A DNA stretch of 40,275 nucleotides from an uncultured Fidelibacterota bacterium (GTDB lineage Bacteria; Fidelibacterota; Marinisomatia; Marinisomatales; UBA1611). Positions within the stretch are counted from its first letter, which is position 1, and each line of letters begins with the position of its first letter. A program made the position numbers. Positions 12,730 through 18,700 of this stretch are shown piece after piece. Location: assembly GCA_913040915.1 (NCBI GenBank), contig CAJWHW010000018.1, forward strand, positions 1 through 40,275, given 5' to 3'.

Positions 12730-15700
12730 CGGCCCCATAATGATTTAGAAATTACAATACAGAGATCAGGAATAGTGAACAAAATTATTTGGATAGGTAC
12801 TAATAGCCATGGATAACTGGGTTTTTCAATGGCCCATCTAACTTTAATATAATTGTCGCTCCCTTCCTATTTAGTGTTTTTCCTTGTCCTTTTTCCCAAT
12901 TGCGTATCCATTTTCTCACACCCAAAGAAATTGGATGGATTTTTACTACCATTTTATGGAGAAGAATTTCTGGGTGTATTTTATCCTGCCTAAGAGAGTA
13001 ATCTCCATCAATATTTATTTTTAGGAATGGTGTTGCTAGTACAAATTTTATATCACCTGTATATTCATTCATTAGATTGATTGATAATTCTATCAATCTA
13101 ACTTTAAGCTCATTATTCCAAATTCCCAATGTTTCCAGCATAGATTGGATTTCTGGCTCATCCTTTAAACCATCGGGTATCTTGATTTCAAAATTCCTGA
13201 TTGTAAATTTTCCTTCACCGTGTTTGACTTTTGGTAGTGAAGATAAGTTTCCTAAAAATGCAACTTTCCTTACTTCCAGAACCAGATTAGCTAAATTTAT
13301 TCTGGTGTGATTATTCAAGTCATTTTCAGGATTTGCAGTAACAGAAATATTTTCAATTTTAAATTGACCTTGGTCCAAAATAAAATCAAAATTAGTCTTA
13401 TCAGGGTATTTGATTATTTCAATTTTAGATGAATATATTTGAGAAATTTCTCGAATATTTAAAGCATAATCCCAGAATGTTTCCGGAATATTATAGAGTG
13501 AATCATGTGCAGATTCCAATTGGAAGGTTCTGCTATGCCAATCAAATACGATTGGTTGAGTCTTAGGAATAGGATTGATATGAGTAGGATGGGCAATAAT
13601 CTGTCTAGGAAGTAATAGAGAATAAGTCCAGGTCTGATTTTTAAATGGCTCTCTATCTAAGTCTAAATAATTTTTAATATATAGATCATTTAATGAATTT
13701 GGATATTTTGTCATGTCCAACTTATAAATATCTACAGCATCAGCAATTAGATTGATAGTTTTTTTGGGAATAGATAATCTTTTTTCCAATCGTTTAATTT
13801 TTTCAGTAGTGACCCAGTCTTTTATAAAGACTCTTCCACCAAGTTTGAATCCATTTAAATTCAAATTAGGTCCTGATATTTTTGTAGAAATTAGTTGAGC
13901 TTTGCTATTCTGTCTTTGGTCTATGAATATATCGGAGAATCCAAAATTAAACTCATCTATCTCTATATAATATTTCGTTCCATTTTTTTCATCTACTGGA
14001 CTAAAGTCAAATTGAAGATTTTTTAGGAAAATACCTGTATTCGCAAGAGAGCCAGTTATTTGCCCATCTAAAAAGTTTATAAAAAGAATTAAAAGACTCA
14101 GATAGTAAATCAATAGATTTATTATAGTTTTTTTCATAGAAGACTTGATATTGATGAATTGATTCTATTTATTCTGTTTAAAAAATTAGTAGTTTTTGTG
14201 GTAGAAATTGGGAACAAAATTTCCCATAAATTGTTTTGAAACAACAATGACAAAAAACTCAAAAATTGTTTACTCCACAGATACTTCTCAATCAATTGAT
14301 GAAAAGAAACCAAAATATAATTCTATTGATATTGCAGTTCAGAAAGTTAGAATACATTTAGATCGAAAGGGCGGTGGAAGAATCATTTCTGTTGTAAAGG
14401 GTTTAAATGAGTTGGACACTACATTGCTTACCATAGCCAAAGAATTAAAAAAAAGTTGTGGAGTAGGAGGCTCTGTCAAGAATGGTGATATTCTGATACA
14501 GGGGAATCACAGGGGAAAAATACAAAAAATATTAGTACAAAAAGGCTACAACGTCAAATTAAGTGGCGGATAAAAAATGAAATTAACAATAAAGTATTTT
14601 CTAACTGCTTTGATAGCTTCAATGCTATTCTGGTCTTGCTCTGAAGCATCAGGTCATGGATCAGTTACTATGGTACTTTCCGGTAGTGTTCATGGGCAGT
14701 TAGACCCCTGTGGCTGAAAGAAAAATCCACTGGGCGGTCTGTCCAGACGATATGTAAAAATCAATGAAATGAGGGATGAAGGAATTGACCCGCTGATTCT
14801 TGATGCTGGAGATCTATTTTTCAGTACATCTAAATTGAATCCAACAAATATAAAATCTGAGGAGTATCGTGCCGGAGCTATATTAGAAGGATATAGCCGA
14901 ATTGGTTGTGATGCTATCAATGTTGGTCATTACGAAGTTCTGAATGGGTTATCTTTTTTAAAGCAGATGGAAACAGAAAATGATATTCCGTTTTTATCCG
15001 CAAACTTAAGAGACCCGGTGACAAAATCACTATTATTTCAACCTTATCGGATTGTTGAAAAAGGGGCATTAAAAGTTGGCATCATTGGAGTGTCAGATAA
15101 GTTACCAGATACTACTGAATCCATTATTGCTGACGATTATATTGAAGCAGGCAATAGTTATATTGATGAAGTCTCTAAAGAAGCAGATTTAGTTGTGATT
15201 CTTGTTAATAGTGATCGTAAAACTTATAGTCAGTTGCCTGAAAAATTTGCAAATGCAGATTTTATTGTTACTAGTGGAAGTACAAATATGACAAGGCCAA
15301 ATACACCGCAGAAAAAAGGTGGACCTTATATTTATTCCTGCGGTAAACAAGGGAAATATCTATCTGTATTAACTATCAATCTATCTGATCAAATGGAACC
15401 AATTATAGATGTTTCTTCTCATGAAAAAAATATCAAATCGATTCAGAGAAGATTTAAAAAGTTGCAAAAGAAAGACCCGAAAAAACCATTAGAAGAGTTA
15501 TATGCCAATCAGAAGAATGTATTAAAACTTATTGAACAGTACAGACAGGACCTAAAGGAATCAGAAGATGTAATACAATCTGCTATTAATACCGTGGAGT
15601 TTCAAACCGTTGCATTGAATAAAAAAATTCAAGATAATCCAGAAATCTTAGCTTTTGTAGATGAATCACTTGCTACCTGTTCATCCTTAAAACCAAAAGA

Positions 15701-18700
15701 AGCAAAGACTAATGAAAAATCAAAAAGTAAACCAAAATATAAAGGGAATCATGTTGGGCATGATCACTAGGCCCTTTTCACTCTTATCCCAAAATTGAAT
15801 TATAAAAAGCAACTCTCTTTCTATATTATTGGTGCAATTATTGCAGGATTCATATCAAATTTAGGTAGAGATGAATCCATCCCCTGGATTGCGGAACCAC
15901 TTAAAGTTGTAACAGAAGTAGATGATGCATTATTAATTCTTTCTGACCATCAGGTAAGAGAAATTGATTTTAATGCTGCACAATCCTTGCATAAAAAGGG
16001 AATGCTTTTTGTTGATGCAAGATCAGAAGAATATTTATCAGAAGGTATGATCCCTGGTGCTATAGCAAATGATGATATTGAATTATTGATTGAACAAATT
16101 GAGTATCTTCTTGGAGGGGTTGATAAAGGATTTGTGATATATTGCAGTGATGATGAATGCGGTTCTAGTGAAGATTTGGCATATGAATTACAGGATTTTG
16201 GTTTTATGAATATTTTTGTTTTTAAGGGTGGCTGGAAATCATGGACTGATGCTGGCTTGGATATTGAATTTCATGACTAAAGTACATCCCTACATTGTTG
16301 TATTGATTAGATGTATTCTGGGTATAGTTTTTGTATATGCAAGCTATCAGAAAATACTAGATCCAGCAAAATTTGCCCGGGACATTTCTAACTACCATAT
16401 TGTACCCTTTGGTCTAGAAAATATTGTTGCATTGATTATTCCTTGGTTAGAACTATTGATAGGTATAGGTTTGATTGCAGGAATTATGGTTGATGGTGCA
16501 AGCTTAATCAGTGGTGGGTTGTTTGTATTGTTTATAATTTTAATCAGCCAAGCTATCATAAGAGGTTATAACATTGAATGTGGGTGCGGACTAAAGGAAG
16601 GAGAAATGGTTGGATGGATAAAAGTAATAGAAAATTTATTTTATTTGGCAGCATCTTACTTGGTCTGGAAAAGAGACAAAACAGAATTAGAATTTTTCCC
16701 AAAAACGACATTGTCAGAATAATAGACGGAAAGTAATTTTCGCTACTTTATATTCAAACAATCTATTAATTGCGAGAGTAGCTCAGCTGGTAGAGCATCA
16801 CGTTGCCAACGTGAGGGTCGCGAGTTCGAATCTCGTCTCTCGCTCTTTTAAAAAGCCCGTTTAATCGCGGGTTTTTGTTATTTTAACTAATTTAAACCAT
16901 TGCTTTGTTTATTTAATTATTTCTTATAATCTTAATCATGAAACAAAAATTTATTTTAGTTTTTATATTTATGGTCTTAGGATGTGATGTAGATGAAGAA
17001 CCCCCCAAATTTCCATCAAACTTGCGTGGAGTTTTCACATTATCCGAAGGTACTCCAAAAGTAAAAATTAGCTGGGAAAAGTCTACATCTGTTGATGTCA
17101 GTGAATACCATATTTTTAAAGCAAGCGGATTAGAAGGAGCCTTCGATTCATTGACAAATTTGGCTTCAATAAATACAATTTATATTGATACAAATATCAC
17201 TTGGCAGGAACATTTTGGGTATAAGATCAGAGCAAAAGATCAATCAAAAAACATTGGTGGATTTTCTGATTCTGTATTTATAGAATGTTACAAACCCGTG
17301 GGCGAGTGGAATTTTTCTGAATTTGATTCTTTATCGATTTGTATAGATCCTATAACATTTAATACACCTCCATCTTTTCAAATAAAATTTGGAGATACAT
17401 TAACTGCTTTAGGTGACACGATTGGGAGAATGAACTTTTCAGAAAGCATTTTAGATTCAACTGAGTGGATTGGTAACGGCTGGATGGTCTATAATTATTC
17501 GACCCTTGAATTAAATGAGAATCAAGAATATGAAATCGTCACAGAAAATAAATTACCGGAATATTACCAAATTGAGTTATTAAATCCCGATTCTGGGAGA
17601 ATTTTCTTTTTATCAGGTTCCTATGAGTCAATTTACCTGAATCAATCCGTTAAGGATTGTGAAGGGAACTTATACTTTCCTTAAGATCCTGAACCGCATT
17701 CTTCATTAGATGTTTCACTCTCTGTTCCGTAGGAATTAACGGCAGAAACACTAAAACAAGTTGTCTCACCTGTTCCAATATCAACTTCATAACTTAGAGC
17801 AGATACTTCTACAAAAAAGCTATCCCCTTGATAAACCTTATAAGATTCAGCAGAAATAACTGAACCCCAATTAAGTATCGCCGTTGAATCACTTATTGTT
17901 AATGAAAGGACAGGTGGGGTAAAGTTCCCAGTTCCACATTCTACATTAGAAAAATCACTTTCAGATCCATAGTCATTAATAGCAGTTACAGTAAAGCATG
18001 CTTCGGTATCATGAAATAATTCAGTTTCATAATTAGTATTTATCACTTCTTGTATGAAAGAACTATTATTGTAAATACGATAAGCTGAAGCAGATGGCAC
18101 AGAAGACCAACTCAAACTTGCATCTGTACCTGAAACACTAATTGAAATGACGGGCACAGTTAACTCTACTGGCATTGTTACACTCAATGGATCAGATTCT
18201 TCGCCTGCAGTCCCTTCAAAATCAACTGCACTAACAGTATAATTAAAAGTTGTATTATATGCCAATCCATAATCTGTTAAGGTTAATAATGTACCAGACC
18301 ATATTTCAATATCATCCTTATTTATAATATATCCCGAAGCGTTATCTACTGCAGACCAAGCTAAAGTAACATTGGTATCATTAATAGTTGCATTAAATGA
18401 AACAGGTGCAGCTAGTATAGGGACACCGCATTCCTGATTGGATGGCTCACTTTCAGAGCCATACTCATTAATTGCTGTGACAAAAAAGCAGGTAGCGGTG
18501 CCACCATCCAATTCAACGTCATAATTGATATCACTAACTTCAGCGATATGTGAATTATTTTTATAAATACGGTAGGCGGAAGCAGAAGAAACAGAAGTCC
18601 ATGCTAAGGTTCCAATGGATAGGCTTATTGTGATGGATAAATCCGGTGGTAATAATTCTTCATGAGTAGTGACAATTAGAGGGTCTGACTCTGTGCCAAT

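What a model noticed while it worked through the whole genome (the two positions that open the first line are those of the whole stretch)
14577..16722. Phylum-wide lipoprotein selenoprotein (DPCGU motif) in a rhodanese-DoxX operon
Gene calls g01080 (46 aa) and g01081 (333 aa) are one 397-aa lipoprotein in which in-frame TGA (codon 47) encodes selenocysteine in the invariant motif D-P-C-G-U-K-K-N-P-L-G-G. It is a short, divergent member of the 'UshA-like (CxU/PCGU)' selenoprotein family, known so far only as an orphan metagenomic family and an NCBIfam model. New here: it is the signature selenoprotein of Fidelibacterota, it has lost metallophosphatase metal ligands, and it is encoded with a membrane-anchored rhodanese (g01082) and a MauE/DoxX membrane protein with its own C-G-C motif (g01083); Cys-type relatives are fused to tetrahaem cytochromes c and DsbA domains. 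It should be read as the periplasmic redox partner of [...]
Evidence so far: Read-through ORF C18:14577-15770. 381 of 401 Fidelibacterota genomes have a match and nearly every listed full-length match has exactly one in-frame TGA; one small-genome genus has Cys (DCGC). Hairpin with loop GGUCU 14-16 nt after the UGA: in the minimum-energy fold of 10 of 11 Sec forms, loop sequence in 11 of 11, absent in the Cys form. SelA, SelB, SelD present. Rhodanese and MauE/DoxX follow in 17 and 16 of 17 Sec-form loci, 0 of 2 Cys-form loci. g01082 has an N-terminal TM helix, g01083 holds ECGCG. A profile of 13 members finds 387 representatives at E<1e-30; full-length ones carry C-G-C; some are fused to 4-haem cytochrome c and DsbA-like domains. 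Profile matches solved 5'-nucleotidas [...]
(Added by a program. Inside this text positions count along the whole contig: contig position 1 is position 1 of the stretch shown here. "Call 12" and the like, gene names such as g00115 and contig names such as C1 are that model's own, and its searches are not shown. The text may have been shortened before it was handed on; [...] marks where a part breaks off. The agent that wrote the report below was given it as the finding of a first reader that could run no searches.)

Follow-up and report, generated by a model that had tools for sequence, protein, structure and literature searches.

The report
Haem-less UshA-like selenoprotein beside MauE
Two gene calls are really one exported selenocysteine protein built on a dead 5'-nucleotidase fold, a known but uncharacterised family, and here it lacks the family's haem domain and sits next to a membrane thiol oxidase (MauE) and a two-cysteine rhodanese that probably pass its electrons to the respiratory chain.

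Summary
Window 14577-15770 is one 397-codon frame with TGA at codon 47 in D-P-C-G-U-K-K-N-P-L-G-G. A covarying hairpin with a GGUCU loop follows it. SelA, SelB and SelD are in the genome. tRNA-Sec is missing from this 85%-complete bin but was found in 23 of 41 genomes of the same family.

Relatives occur in 353 of 401 genomes of the phylum (Fidelibacterota/Marinimicrobia). The two lineages with Cys at that position are the two without SelA.

The fold is the 5'-nucleotidase N-domain with the metal and catalytic residues gone. The family (UshA-like CxU, NCBIfam NF041198) has been in print since 2008.

- The canonical family, Sec forms included, carries a C-terminal tetrahaem cytochrome c. The window protein lacks it and scores 239.8 bits, below the 275-bit cut-off.
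- The rhodanese-MauE link holds in one class, in two gene orders, once as a fusion. It is not phylum-wide.
- The C-G-C of g01083 is the MauE family's active site. A 2026 preprint shows MauE replacing DsbB.

Best reading (about 0.45): a periplasmic Cys-Gly-Sec redox centre whose electrons leave through the C-x4-C rhodanese and MauE to quinone. The substrate is unknown. I class it as a new variant of a known kind.

The parts
14208..14573 (+). SUI1/YciH-like gene, 4 nt upstream of the selenoprotein gene. It is syntenic within the order, and I see no functional link.
   Evidence: Pfam PF01253 6.9e-18 and NCBIfam YciH models below their cut-offs. It lies upstream in 30 of 30 f1 loci and 9 of 10 other Sec-form loci of the order, and in 0 of 10 loci elsewhere.
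14577..15770 (+). UshA-like selenoprotein, 397 aa, read through TGA at codon 47. It is a haem-less short form related to NF041198.
   Evidence: NF041198 scores 239.8 bits against a cut-off of 275, covering profile positions 2-396 of 519. AlphaFold2 gives pLDDT 90.2. Foldseek finds CD73 and UshA, best E 8.8e-21.
14577..14639 (+). Signal peptide ending in Cys21 (LFWSC). This is a lipoprotein-type signal.
   Evidence: Seen directly in the sequence. A Cys ends the hydrophobic N-terminal segment in 44 of 49 orthologues: 36 by a strict pattern and 8 more by eye from the rows listed. No dedicated predictor was available.
14709..14717 (+). Codons for Cys45-Gly46-Sec47 (TGT GGC TGA), the proposed redox centre.
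   Evidence: C45 and position 47 are invariant in the 26-sequence alignment, where position 47 is U in 22 rows and C in 4.
14730..14746 (+). SECIS-type hairpin: stem 14730-14735 pairs with 14741-14746, loop GGUCU at 14736-14740.
   Evidence: No Rfam family matches it.
15795..16280 (+). Membrane-anchored periplasmic rhodanese with Y-C117-x4-C122-G-x-S in an acidic active-site loop (CSDDEC). C117 is at 16143-16145 and C122 at 16158-16160.
   Evidence: Pfam PF00581 2.5e-11. Both Cys are invariant in 24 of 24 sequences and present in 36 of 37. The closest NCBIfam models, rhodanese_LYCAU and TsoB, are all far below their cut-offs.
16273..16722 (+). MauE/DoxX four-helix membrane protein with C-G-C at 16579-16587 between helices 3 and 4. 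The ATG at 16273 overlaps the rhodanese stop; the longest ORF starts at 16216.
   Evidence: Pfam MauE 1.3e-28. C-G-C is present in 37 of 37 orthologues, with a conserved K and a conserved E. The preprint on MauE was read.
16772..16845 (+). tRNA-Gly(GCC), followed by the only terminator-like hairpin of the cluster (16851-16876). It marks the likely end of the transcription unit.

Best explanation
g01080 and g01081 are one exported, probably lipid-anchored selenoprotein. It keeps the fold of the N-terminal domain of 5'-nucleotidases. It has lost the two-metal site, the catalytic His and the nucleotide-binding C-domain. In the loop right after the first phosphatase motif it carries an invariant Cys-Gly-Sec (Cys-Gly-Cys in lineages without Sec machinery).

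I read this pair as a redox centre that cycles between selenol/thiol and selenenylsulfide.

In the canonical family the centre is wired to a fused tetrahaem cytochrome c. Here that domain is absent. The electrons most likely leave by thiol-disulfide exchange through the periplasmic C-x4-C rhodanese domain to the C-G-C loop of MauE, a DsbB-like quinone-linked oxidase, and from there to quinone.

On this reading the protein oxidises a periplasmic reductant: protein thiols, or a small reduced sulfur compound. The substrate is not known.

Shown: the gene structure, the Sec decoding signals, the fold, the loss of ligands, the distribution, the gene order and the fusions.

Inferred: the redox role of C-G-U, the contact with rhodanese and MauE, and the direction of electron flow.
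For: Real selenoprotein:
- Conserved single TGA, covarying hairpin, and SelA/SelB/SelD present.
- Cys sits at the same position exactly in the families that lack SelA: f3 has SelA in 1 of 37 genomes and f26 in 0 of 33, against 304 of 401 overall.

Dead phosphatase:
- No Pfam Metallophos or 5_nucleotid_C hit.
- Profile alignments to solved 5'-nucleotidases put S37, H39, D79, H118, Y119, N211 and G234 at the ligand and catalytic positions. None of these columns is invariant in 26 sequences. C45, U47 and G46 are.

Electron wiring in relatives:
- 25 of 40 long relatives carry a C-terminal domain with four CxxCH.
- These hit NF041198 end to end at 313-569 bits.
- Two Desulfobulbia loci have this architecture with the TGA and the hairpin.
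- Three proteins of about 1200 aa add a DsbA-like domain.

Neighbours:
- MauE lies within 1.5 kb downstream in 119 of 133 genomes, directly upstream in 6, and is unlinked in 8.
- In families f17 and f19 the rhodanese and MauE are one polypeptide placed upstream. The trio therefore survives a rearrangement and a fusion.
- C-x4-C is invariant in the rhodanese and C-G-C in MauE.

MauE function:
- MauE replaces DsbB in E. coli and needs its CXC. That motif lies in a loop between helices 3 and 4 which TOPCONS predicts to be periplasmic. It docks ubiquinone in models (preprint 10.64898/2026.03.05.709764; abstract and Results read).

No usual partner:
- In the window's family (41 genomes) DsbB was found in 0, VKOR in 0, DsbA in 1 and MauE in 36. 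MauE there has no usual periplasmic partner.

Topology (inference from the sequences):
- The signal peptide, the N-in anchor of the rhodanese and the extra helix in the fusion put all three Cys/Sec motifs in the periplasm.
Against:
- The link is confined to one class. In f28 the genes lie on different contigs (3 of 3 genomes). f22 has the Sec form but no MauE match (0 of 6). f3 keeps the Cys form (29 of 37) with no MauE (0 of 37), DsbB (0 of 7) or VKOR (0 of 7) found. The protein can therefore work without MauE.
- Many genomes with the operon also have VKOR (f5: 9 of 10).
- The kinship of the genomes means gene order could be inherited rather than selected; the upstream SUI1 gene is just as syntenic.
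- The preprint notes that an earlier study saw MauE as a possible reductase, so the direction is open.
- The window MauE has G, not the usual F, after CXC.
- The one canonical haem-form locus with context lacks rhodanese and MauE. This fits a swap of electron routes, but it is a single locus.
Confidence: 0.45

Rival explanations
1. The components are the same but the flow is reversed. MauE and the C-x4-C rhodanese deliver reducing power to the periplasm, as DsbD does. The C-G-U protein is then a reductase or peroxidase, for example for disulfides, peroxides or selenium/sulfur oxyanions.
For: The rhodanese domain is most similar, though far below cut-off, to that of TsoB. TsoB is annotated as a rhodanese/DsbD-like fusion selenoprotein with U-x4-U, the same spacing as C-x4-C here. 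The preprint cites an earlier report of MauE as a possible reductase. Sec is typical of peroxidases and reductases (recalled).
Against: MauE complemented loss of DsbB, an oxidase. It has one Cys pair on the periplasmic side and no known cytoplasmic donor site. The fused partner in canonical forms is a c-type cytochrome, and in the window's family no other disulfide-forming enzyme was found.
Confidence: 0.2
2. Neighbours but not partners. Rhodanese-MauE is the general disulfide-forming system of these bacteria. The UshA-like selenoprotein does something unrelated and merely shares an inherited operon.
For: SUI1 is equally syntenic. The linkage is limited to one class. The protein persists without MauE in f3 and f22. 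Rhodanese-MauE fusions appear to exist in Thermodesulfobacteriota irrespective of this protein; this is an ESM Atlas lead with scores of 0.88 and 0.82.
Against: The trio is kept through a rearrangement that moves rhodanese-MauE from downstream to upstream and fuses them. SUI1 is not kept there. All three carry closely spaced Cys/Sec pairs in the same compartment.
Confidence: 0.2
3. It binds or carries a metal or chalcogen. Cys-Gly-Sec, the C-terminal His-rich tail and the acidic rhodanese loop would handle a soft metal or selenium/sulfur atoms rather than electrons.
For: An H-x-G-H-x-H tail is found in 22 of 50 orthologues, 21 of them in f1. The rhodanese loop CSDD(D/E)C is acidic. The window protein keeps H39 and has H118 at former ligand positions. 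A second MauE in this genome is fused to a heavy-metal-associated domain.
Against: The tail and both His residues are not conserved outside f1. The haem and DsbA fusions in relatives point to electron transfer.
Confidence: 0.08
4. It is still a phosphoesterase (5'-nucleotidase or cyclic phosphodiesterase), as public annotations say.
For: The fold and sequence resemble 5'-nucleotidases. JGI names relatives 2',3'-cyclic-nucleotide 2'-phosphodiesterase.
Against: The ligand and catalytic columns are not conserved. There is no C-terminal substrate domain and no Pfam hit.
Confidence: 0.04
5. These are two separate genes or a pseudogene, and the TGA is a true stop.
For: Gene callers split it, and no tRNA-Sec was found in the bin.
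Against: A single TGA at the same codon recurs across the phylum. There are also the covarying hairpin, the Cys replacement exactly where SelA is missing, and tRNA-Sec in 23 of 41 relatives.
Confidence: 0.01

Closest known systems
NCBIfam NF041198 'UshA-like (seleno)protein' (= 'COG0737 UshA-like, CxU' of the 2008 GOS selenoproteome paper)
   Same: The P-C-G-U/C motif sits at the same place, on the same degenerate 5'-nucleotidase N-domain and helical insert, with the same type of hairpin after the UGA. The family is listed in PMC2398784, PMC9312934 and PMC13188914 (passages read).
   Different: It scores 239.8 bits, below the 275-bit cut-off, and ends at profile position 396 of 519. It lacks the C-terminal tetrahaem cytochrome c that full-length members have. 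It has a lipoprotein-type signal, a His-rich tail and rhodanese-MauE neighbours.
5'-nucleotidases UshA and CD73, and the YfkN N-domain
   Same: The fold matches (Foldseek E 8.8e-21, TM 0.61 on the query). The GG-x-x-R, D-A-G-D, S-A-N and G-K-Y-L motifs are shared.
   Different: The metal ligands and catalytic His are not conserved, there is no C-terminal nucleotide-binding domain, and a helical hairpin is inserted at about 280-335.
SoxB thiosulfohydrolase
   Same: It belongs to the same superfamily, with weak matches (TIGR04486 1.3e-12; PDB 2wdc 2e-8). It is also a periplasmic protein in a sulfur-related setting.
   Different: SoxB is a two-manganese hydrolase (recalled). Here the site is degenerate, and the score is far below the 550-bit cut-off.
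MauE-based disulfide formation (DsbB-like), bioRxiv 10.64898/2026.03.05.709764
   Same: g01083 has the MauE fold family, the C-G-C between helices 3 and 4, and a conserved K and a conserved E.
   Different: The preprint expects a thioredoxin-fold partner (DsbA or MauD). Here the adjacent or fused periplasmic domain is a C-x4-C rhodanese, next to a C-G-U protein. The preprint does not mention rhodanese, selenium or this phylum (0 occurrences).
TsoB, rhodanese/DsbD-fusion-like selenoprotein (NF045694)
   Same: A rhodanese domain with a redox pair spaced x4 (U-x4-U) is joined to a membrane thiol-disulfide protein.
   Different: The similarity is weak (17 to 40 bits against a cut-off of 805). The pair is Cys not Sec, and the membrane part is MauE not DsbD-like.
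Mia40 (CPC) - Erv1 - cytochrome c relay of mitochondria; CXC peptides as PDI mimics (both recalled, not tested)
   Same: A CXC redox pair passes electrons on to a cytochrome c or to the respiratory chain.
   Different: The folds are unrelated. This is an analogy only.

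Membership tests
NF041198 UshA-like (seleno)protein (equivalog) | Score at or above the curated cut-off (275 bits) | tested here: not met
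   239.8 bits. Three other short forms score 170-183 bits and the paralogue 167 bits.
NF041198 UshA-like (seleno)protein (equivalog) | P-C-G-U/C motif after the first phosphatase motif | tested here: met
   DPCGU at residues 43-47. The motif is invariant across the alignment.
NF041198 UshA-like (seleno)protein (equivalog) | Full-length architecture including the C-terminal tetrahaem cytochrome c (profile positions about 400-519) | tested here: not met
   The match ends at profile position 396, and there is no CxxCH in the protein. Full-length members have four.
Bacterial selenoprotein | In-frame UGA conserved among orthologues, with Cys in some homologues at the same position | tested here: met
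Bacterial selenoprotein | Hairpin shortly after the UGA, supported by covariation | tested here: met
   No Rfam model matches it.
Bacterial selenoprotein | SelA, SelB, SelD and tRNA-Sec in the genome | tested here: inconclusive
   SelA, SelB and SelD are over their cut-offs. tRNA-Sec was not found in this 85%-complete bin. It was found in 23 of 41 family genomes.
Bacterial selenoprotein | Selenium in the protein | not testable with these tools
   This needs 75Se labelling or mass spectrometry.
Calcineurin-like metallophosphoesterase / 5'-nucleotidase | Overall fold of the N-terminal domain | tested here: met
Calcineurin-like metallophosphoesterase / 5'-nucleotidase | Conserved metal ligands and catalytic His (motifs DxH, GD, GNH(E/D), H, GHxH) | tested here: not met
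   The aligned residues are S37, H39, D79, H118, Y119, N211 and G234, and none of these columns is invariant. The identity of the ligand positions in the solved enzymes is recalled.
Calcineurin-like metallophosphoesterase / 5'-nucleotidase | C-terminal substrate-binding domain (PF02872) | tested here: not met
   No Pfam hit. Residues 280-371 are helical.
MauE (g01083) | Pfam PF07291 over its cut-off, and CXC between helices 3 and 4 | tested here: met
   100.2 bits against a cut-off of 27. C-G-C is present in 37 of 37 orthologues.
MauE (g01083) | Phe-Gly after CXC (highly conserved according to the preprint) | tested here: not met
   The window has C-G-C-G-L. The fused form in L069 has C-G-C-F.
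MauE (g01083) | Replaces DsbB in vivo | not testable with these tools
   Shown for two other MauE proteins only.
Rhodanese sulfurtransferase (g01082) | Rhodanese domain with the catalytic Cys | tested here: met
   PF00581. C117 is invariant.
Rhodanese sulfurtransferase (g01082) | Active-site loop suited to binding anions | tested here: inconclusive
   The loop is acidic and ends in a second invariant Cys. That typical loops are basic is recalled.
Bacterial lipoprotein | Signal peptide ending in a lipobox Cys | tested here: inconclusive
   L-F-W-S-C21. A Cys sits at this place in 44 of 49 orthologues (plus reading by eye). No dedicated predictor was available.

The most novel reading that the evidence does not exclude
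The Cys-Gly-Sec protein is the substrate-facing member of a periplasmic thiol-oxidising pathway that needs neither DsbA nor DsbB. A selenenylsulfide on a dead phosphatase scaffold takes electrons from protein thiols or reduced sulfur compounds. It hands them either to its own tetrahaem cytochrome (canonical form) or to a C-x4-C rhodanese adaptor and MauE, and so to quinone (this form).

If so, three things follow:
- The orphan UshA-like selenoprotein family would gain a function.
- MauE would gain a non-thioredoxin partner.
- The question of how most Fidelibacterota, in which DsbA was found in only 15 of 151 genomes and DsbB in 1 (a doubtful match), oxidise periplasmic thiols would have an answer.
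Probability: 0.2. Interest if true: 0.8.

Novelty: new variant of a known kind. Interest (0 to 1): 0.6.

Why it matters
The UshA-like CxU selenoprotein has been listed since 2008 without a function.

This locus offers testable handles:
- The metal site is gone.
- The only invariant chemistry is Cys-Gly-Sec.
- Relatives wire that site to haems and DsbA-like domains.
- Here it sits with a MauE oxidase, whose role in disulfide formation was reported only in 2026, and with a rhodanese that looks like a redox adaptor.

It is one of the most widely kept exported proteins of a major ocean phylum. Streamlined 1-Mb genomes that have lost selenocysteine keep it in a Cys form.

Public records split it, or call it a hypothetical protein or a nucleotidase. 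The annotation is therefore systematically wrong.

Tried and rejected
Binding is therefore untested.
- The search for related loci with the 26-sequence alignment failed because it holds no conserved stretch. I then used a single haem-form protein as the query.
- A search for longer relatives of MauE found none. This is weak evidence because of the word index.
- Rfam has no match to the hairpin.
- I considered that DsbA and the UshA-like protein exclude each other, because the only f1 genome with DsbA (G281) has no UshA-like match. I rejected this: f17 to f20 have both.
- I considered that MauE is the only disulfide-forming enzyme wherever the operon occurs. I rejected this outside f1: VKOR is present in f5 in 9 of 10 genomes.
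- Several MauE matches showed '1 TGA'. In the one I read, it is the gene's own stop codon, so MauE is not a selenoprotein there.
- The RNA-library contigs cover only 14565-14735 and 16232-16675. They show the sequence in an RNA library, not a transcript structure. The uncovered parts say nothing.
- ESM Atlas hits for the fused rhodanese-MauE protein score below 0.9 and are a lead only.

Full report
**Observation**

The two gene calls are one reading frame. Window 14577-14717 and 14769-15770 lie in the same frame and are separated only by TGA at 14715-14717. Read through, the frame gives 397 residues with D-P-C45-G-U47-K-K-N-P-L-G-G. The N-terminus is a signal peptide ending in L-F-W-S-C21. A Cys stands at that place in 44 of 49 orthologues: 36 by a strict pattern and 8 more by eye from its listed rows. 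The other five look like ordinary signal peptides.

**Selenocysteine decoding**

- Twelve bases after the TGA a 6-bp stem (14730-14735 with 14741-14746) closes a GGUCU loop.
- Of 46 Sec-form loci from across the phylum, 44 carry GGTCT at that position. The other two still fold into a hairpin there.
- On 48 sequences, including two from Desulfobulbia, 89.9% of cells pair, against 24-59% when the 3' partners are slid.
- One pair occurs as GC 26, AU 10, GU 3, UA 3, other 4. Both of its columns are synonymous third positions.
- None of 500 shuffles reaches the observed covariation score.
- The four Cys forms use other synonymous codons and have no such loop.
- SelA and SelB lie side by side on contig 16, and SelD on contig 6 has its own in-frame TGA.
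- tRNA-Sec is not in this bin, which is 85% complete; the best matches are tRNA-Ser. It scores over the Rfam threshold in 23 of 41 genomes of the family, among them the same-genus genome.
- A 171-nt contig of a marine metatranscriptome library matches 14565-14735 without a difference. The TGA is therefore not an error of this assembly. This is presence in an RNA library, not proof of a transcript.

**Distribution**

- 353 of 401 genomes of the phylum have a match at E<=1e-10: 177 of 190 high-quality genomes and 107 of 114 genera.
- All but four of the listed matches contain one TGA. Three of the four exceptions are in genus g17, whose genomes are 0.7-1.1 Mb.
- Sources name close homologues 'Candidatus Marinimicrobia', which NCBI taxonomy files under Fidelibacterota.
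- There are at least two Cys lineages: f3/g17 (D-C-G-C) and f26 (E-P-C-G-C and M-P-C-D-C).
- These are the lineages without SelA. SelA was found in 304 of 401 genomes overall, in 1 of 37 in f3 and in 0 of 33 in f26. The protein is thus kept, with Cys, when the Sec trait is lost.
- This genome has a second Sec copy at a contig end, 35% identical, with Q-L-D-P-C-G-U-K-A-N-P.
- Public databases hold mostly truncated calls of 329-352 aa that begin after the TGA, or calls made with TGA read as Trp (D-P-C-G-W). They are named hypothetical protein or cyclic-nucleotide phosphodiesterase.

**What the protein is**

- AlphaFold2 on a 26-sequence alignment gives pLDDT 90.2 and pTM 0.84.
- Foldseek finds CD73, snake-venom and E. 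coli 5'-nucleotidases, best E 8.8e-21 with TM 0.61 on the query.
- A profile of the alignment finds the same proteins by sequence (1e-23) and SoxB weakly (2e-8).
- Pfam finds nothing.
- In the profile alignments the positions of the metal ligands and the catalytic His are S37, H39, D79, H118, Y119, N211 and G234 in the window protein. None of these columns is invariant. Which residues are ligands in the solved enzymes is recalled.
- G-G-x-x-R, D-A-G-D, S-A-N and G-K-x-G-K-Y are shared with ordinary 5'-nucleotidases.
- Features I could not match to the solved 5'-nucleotidases by eye from those alignments are P-C-G-U, six to eight residues after the first phosphatase motif, a helical insert (about 280-335), and N338.
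- The nucleotide-binding C-domain is absent.
- Within f1 the protein ends in H-x-G-H-x-H. Such a tail occurs in 22 of 50 orthologues, 21 of them in f1.

**Relation to the known family**

The family is in print. 'COG0737 UshA-like, CxU' had 76 Sec sequences and 92 Cys homologues in the GOS selenoproteome (PMC2398784, passages read). It is listed with NF041198 in two reviews (PMC9312934 and PMC13188914, passages read).

- The window protein scores 239.8 bits against the model's cut-off of 275 and covers profile positions 2-396 of 519.
- A search of 1.84 billion representatives with the alignment gave 1578 hits at E<=1e-30.
- Among the best 150, many begin at profile position 51 with M-G-G-L. That is where a caller restarts after the TGA. 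Full-length ones carry C-G-C or C-G-W.
- Of 40 long ones, 25 have a C-terminal cytochrome c554-like domain, 3 of these also a DsbA-like domain and a second UshA-like domain, and 7 are ordinary nucleotidases.
- All 20 that I scanned for CxxCH have four.
- The 8 haem-bearing single-domain forms scanned hit NF041198 at 313-569 bits, 7 of them end to end. The extra 120 positions of the model are therefore the tetrahaem domain.
- Two Desulfobulbia MAG loci encode this architecture with E-P-C-G-TGA and the same hairpin. Sec forms with haems exist.
- The window protein is the haem-less form.
- Short Cys forms also occur outside the phylum. One named example comes from a Myxococcus MAG.

**Neighbours**

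- g01082 is a rhodanese with an N-terminal anchor helix. Y-C117-x4-C122-G-x-S is invariant, in an acidic loop.
- g01083 is MauE/DoxX, most likely starting at the ATG at 16273, which overlaps the rhodanese stop. C-G-C is invariant between helices 3 and 4, and a K and an E are conserved.
- In 30 f1 loci the rhodanese follows in 27 and MauE in 26. The misses are genus g10 and one cut contig.
- In 10 further Sec-form loci of the order both follow in 9. In the 2 Cys-form loci of f3 neither follows.
- Combining the coordinates listed by two phylum-wide searches, MauE lies within 1.5 kb downstream on the same strand in 119 of 133 genomes, directly upstream in 6, and elsewhere in 8. These lists favour close relatives.
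- The six upstream cases are all in f17, with open frames of 158-416 aa at the MauE match (five of them 361-416 aa). In f19 a 356-aa protein has both Pfam domains and lies directly upstream.
- In 7 of 8 loci from other orders and classes nothing of the kind lies within 5 kb. In three f28 genomes the genes are on different contigs.
- MauE matches are found in 269 of 401 genomes: 0 of 37 in f3, 0 of 6 in f22 (which has the Sec form), and in f26 only in genus g88.
- The wider window holds housekeeping genes and surface proteins, with nothing sulfur-related.
- The cluster ends with tRNA-Gly and the only terminator-like hairpin.

**What MauE does**

A 2026 preprint (10.64898/2026.03.05.709764; abstract and the whole Results section read) reports the following:
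- MauE from two phyla restores motility and PhoA activity in an E. coli dsbB mutant.
- Either Cys of its CXC is required.
- The motif lies in a loop between helices 3 and 4 that TOPCONS predicts to be periplasmic.
- Ubiquinone docks in models.
- 8.2% of MauE entries are fused to thioredoxin-fold domains.

The preprint does not mention rhodanese, selenium or this phylum. The C-G-C in g01083 is therefore the family's active site.

I counted the other disulfide-formation genes:

| Gene | Window's family (41 genomes, 15 high quality) | Phylum sample (151 genomes) |
|---|---|---|
| DsbB | 0 | 1 (weak, broken match) |
| VKOR | 0 | 28 (includes f5, 9 of 10) |
| DsbA-type domains | 1 | 15 (mostly f17-f20, most with a TGA) |
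| MauE | 36 | not run on this sample |

These come (family; phylum). The second MauE of this genome is fused to a heavy-metal-associated domain and has C-A-C.

**Mechanism**

The only invariant chemistry is the Cys-Gly-Sec pair. Relatives join it to haems and DsbA-like domains. Here it shares an operon, and by sequence-based topology a compartment, with two further closely spaced Cys pairs, one of which belongs to a quinone-linked oxidase.

I therefore read the protein as a periplasmic redox enzyme. Its selenenylsulfide is re-oxidised through the rhodanese and MauE in this form, or through its own haems in the canonical form. Both routes lead to the respiratory chain, which favours oxidation of a periplasmic reductant.

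Several things weaken this:
- The substrate is unknown.
- The contact is untested.
- The direction is inferred.
- The protein persists where no MauE was found (f3, f22). The relay cannot be its only route.

**Novelty**

The family and its Sec motif are known. What I could not find in print:
- the haem-less short form and its near-universality in Fidelibacterota;
- the fact that the canonical model includes a tetrahaem domain;
- the link to MauE and a C-x4-C rhodanese;
- the match between Cys forms and loss of SelA.

The searches were: 'UshA-like' + selenoprotein (3 papers), selenoprotein + Marinimicrobia, selenocysteine + SAR406, MauE/rhodanese/DoxX, TsoB, and Fidelibacterota + seleno (0 papers). 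Supplementary tables of the selenoproteome papers were not opened and may list taxa or neighbours.

Noticed in passing
L046:3-1025 (G000 contig 65, contig end): A second UshA-like selenoprotein copy, 35% identical, with Q-L-D-P-C-G-U-K-A-N-P. It has no rhodanese or MauE beside it. A convergent PLP-dependent (cysteine synthase/CBS-like, PF00291) gene follows. Many genomes of the order have two matches.
   Followed up: partly
L086:3031-3750 (G000 contig 7): A 239-aa protein that joins an N-terminal heavy-metal-associated domain (G-M-T-C-S-E-C) to a MauE-like membrane domain with C-A-C. An RND/MMPL-like 749-aa membrane protein follows it.
   Followed up: partly
G000 contig 6, 66560-67486 (L006): SelD has one in-frame TGA, so the selenophosphate synthetase is itself a selenoprotein here.
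   Followed up: no
Genomes G014, G031, G103, G039, G030, G095, G018, G091, G006, G281: The DsbA-like genes of this phylum mostly carry one in-frame TGA (DsbA-type selenoproteins). In f17 to f19, VKOR and DsbA domains lie in single open frames of about 400-450 aa.
   Followed up: no
window 16772-16845 and 16851-16876: tRNA-Gly(GCC) lies directly after MauE and is followed by a terminator-like hairpin. The tRNA may be co-transcribed with the cluster.
   Followed up: no
window 17681-22835 (- strand) and 33754-37344 (+ strand): Two adjacent large proteins have six Big_7 Ig-like repeats each. A 1196-aa protein has a Por/T9SS C-terminal sorting domain.
   Followed up: no
window 15740-15770: The C-terminal tail H-V-G-H-D-H is conserved as H-x-G-H-x-H in 21 of 30 f1 orthologues and is absent in most other families.
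   Followed up: partly
window 14718-14723 and 16146-16157: Two Lys residues follow Sec47 (U-K-K), and the rhodanese loop between its two Cys is acidic (S-D-D-E). This could be charge matching between the two active sites. It is speculation and was not tested.
   Followed up: no
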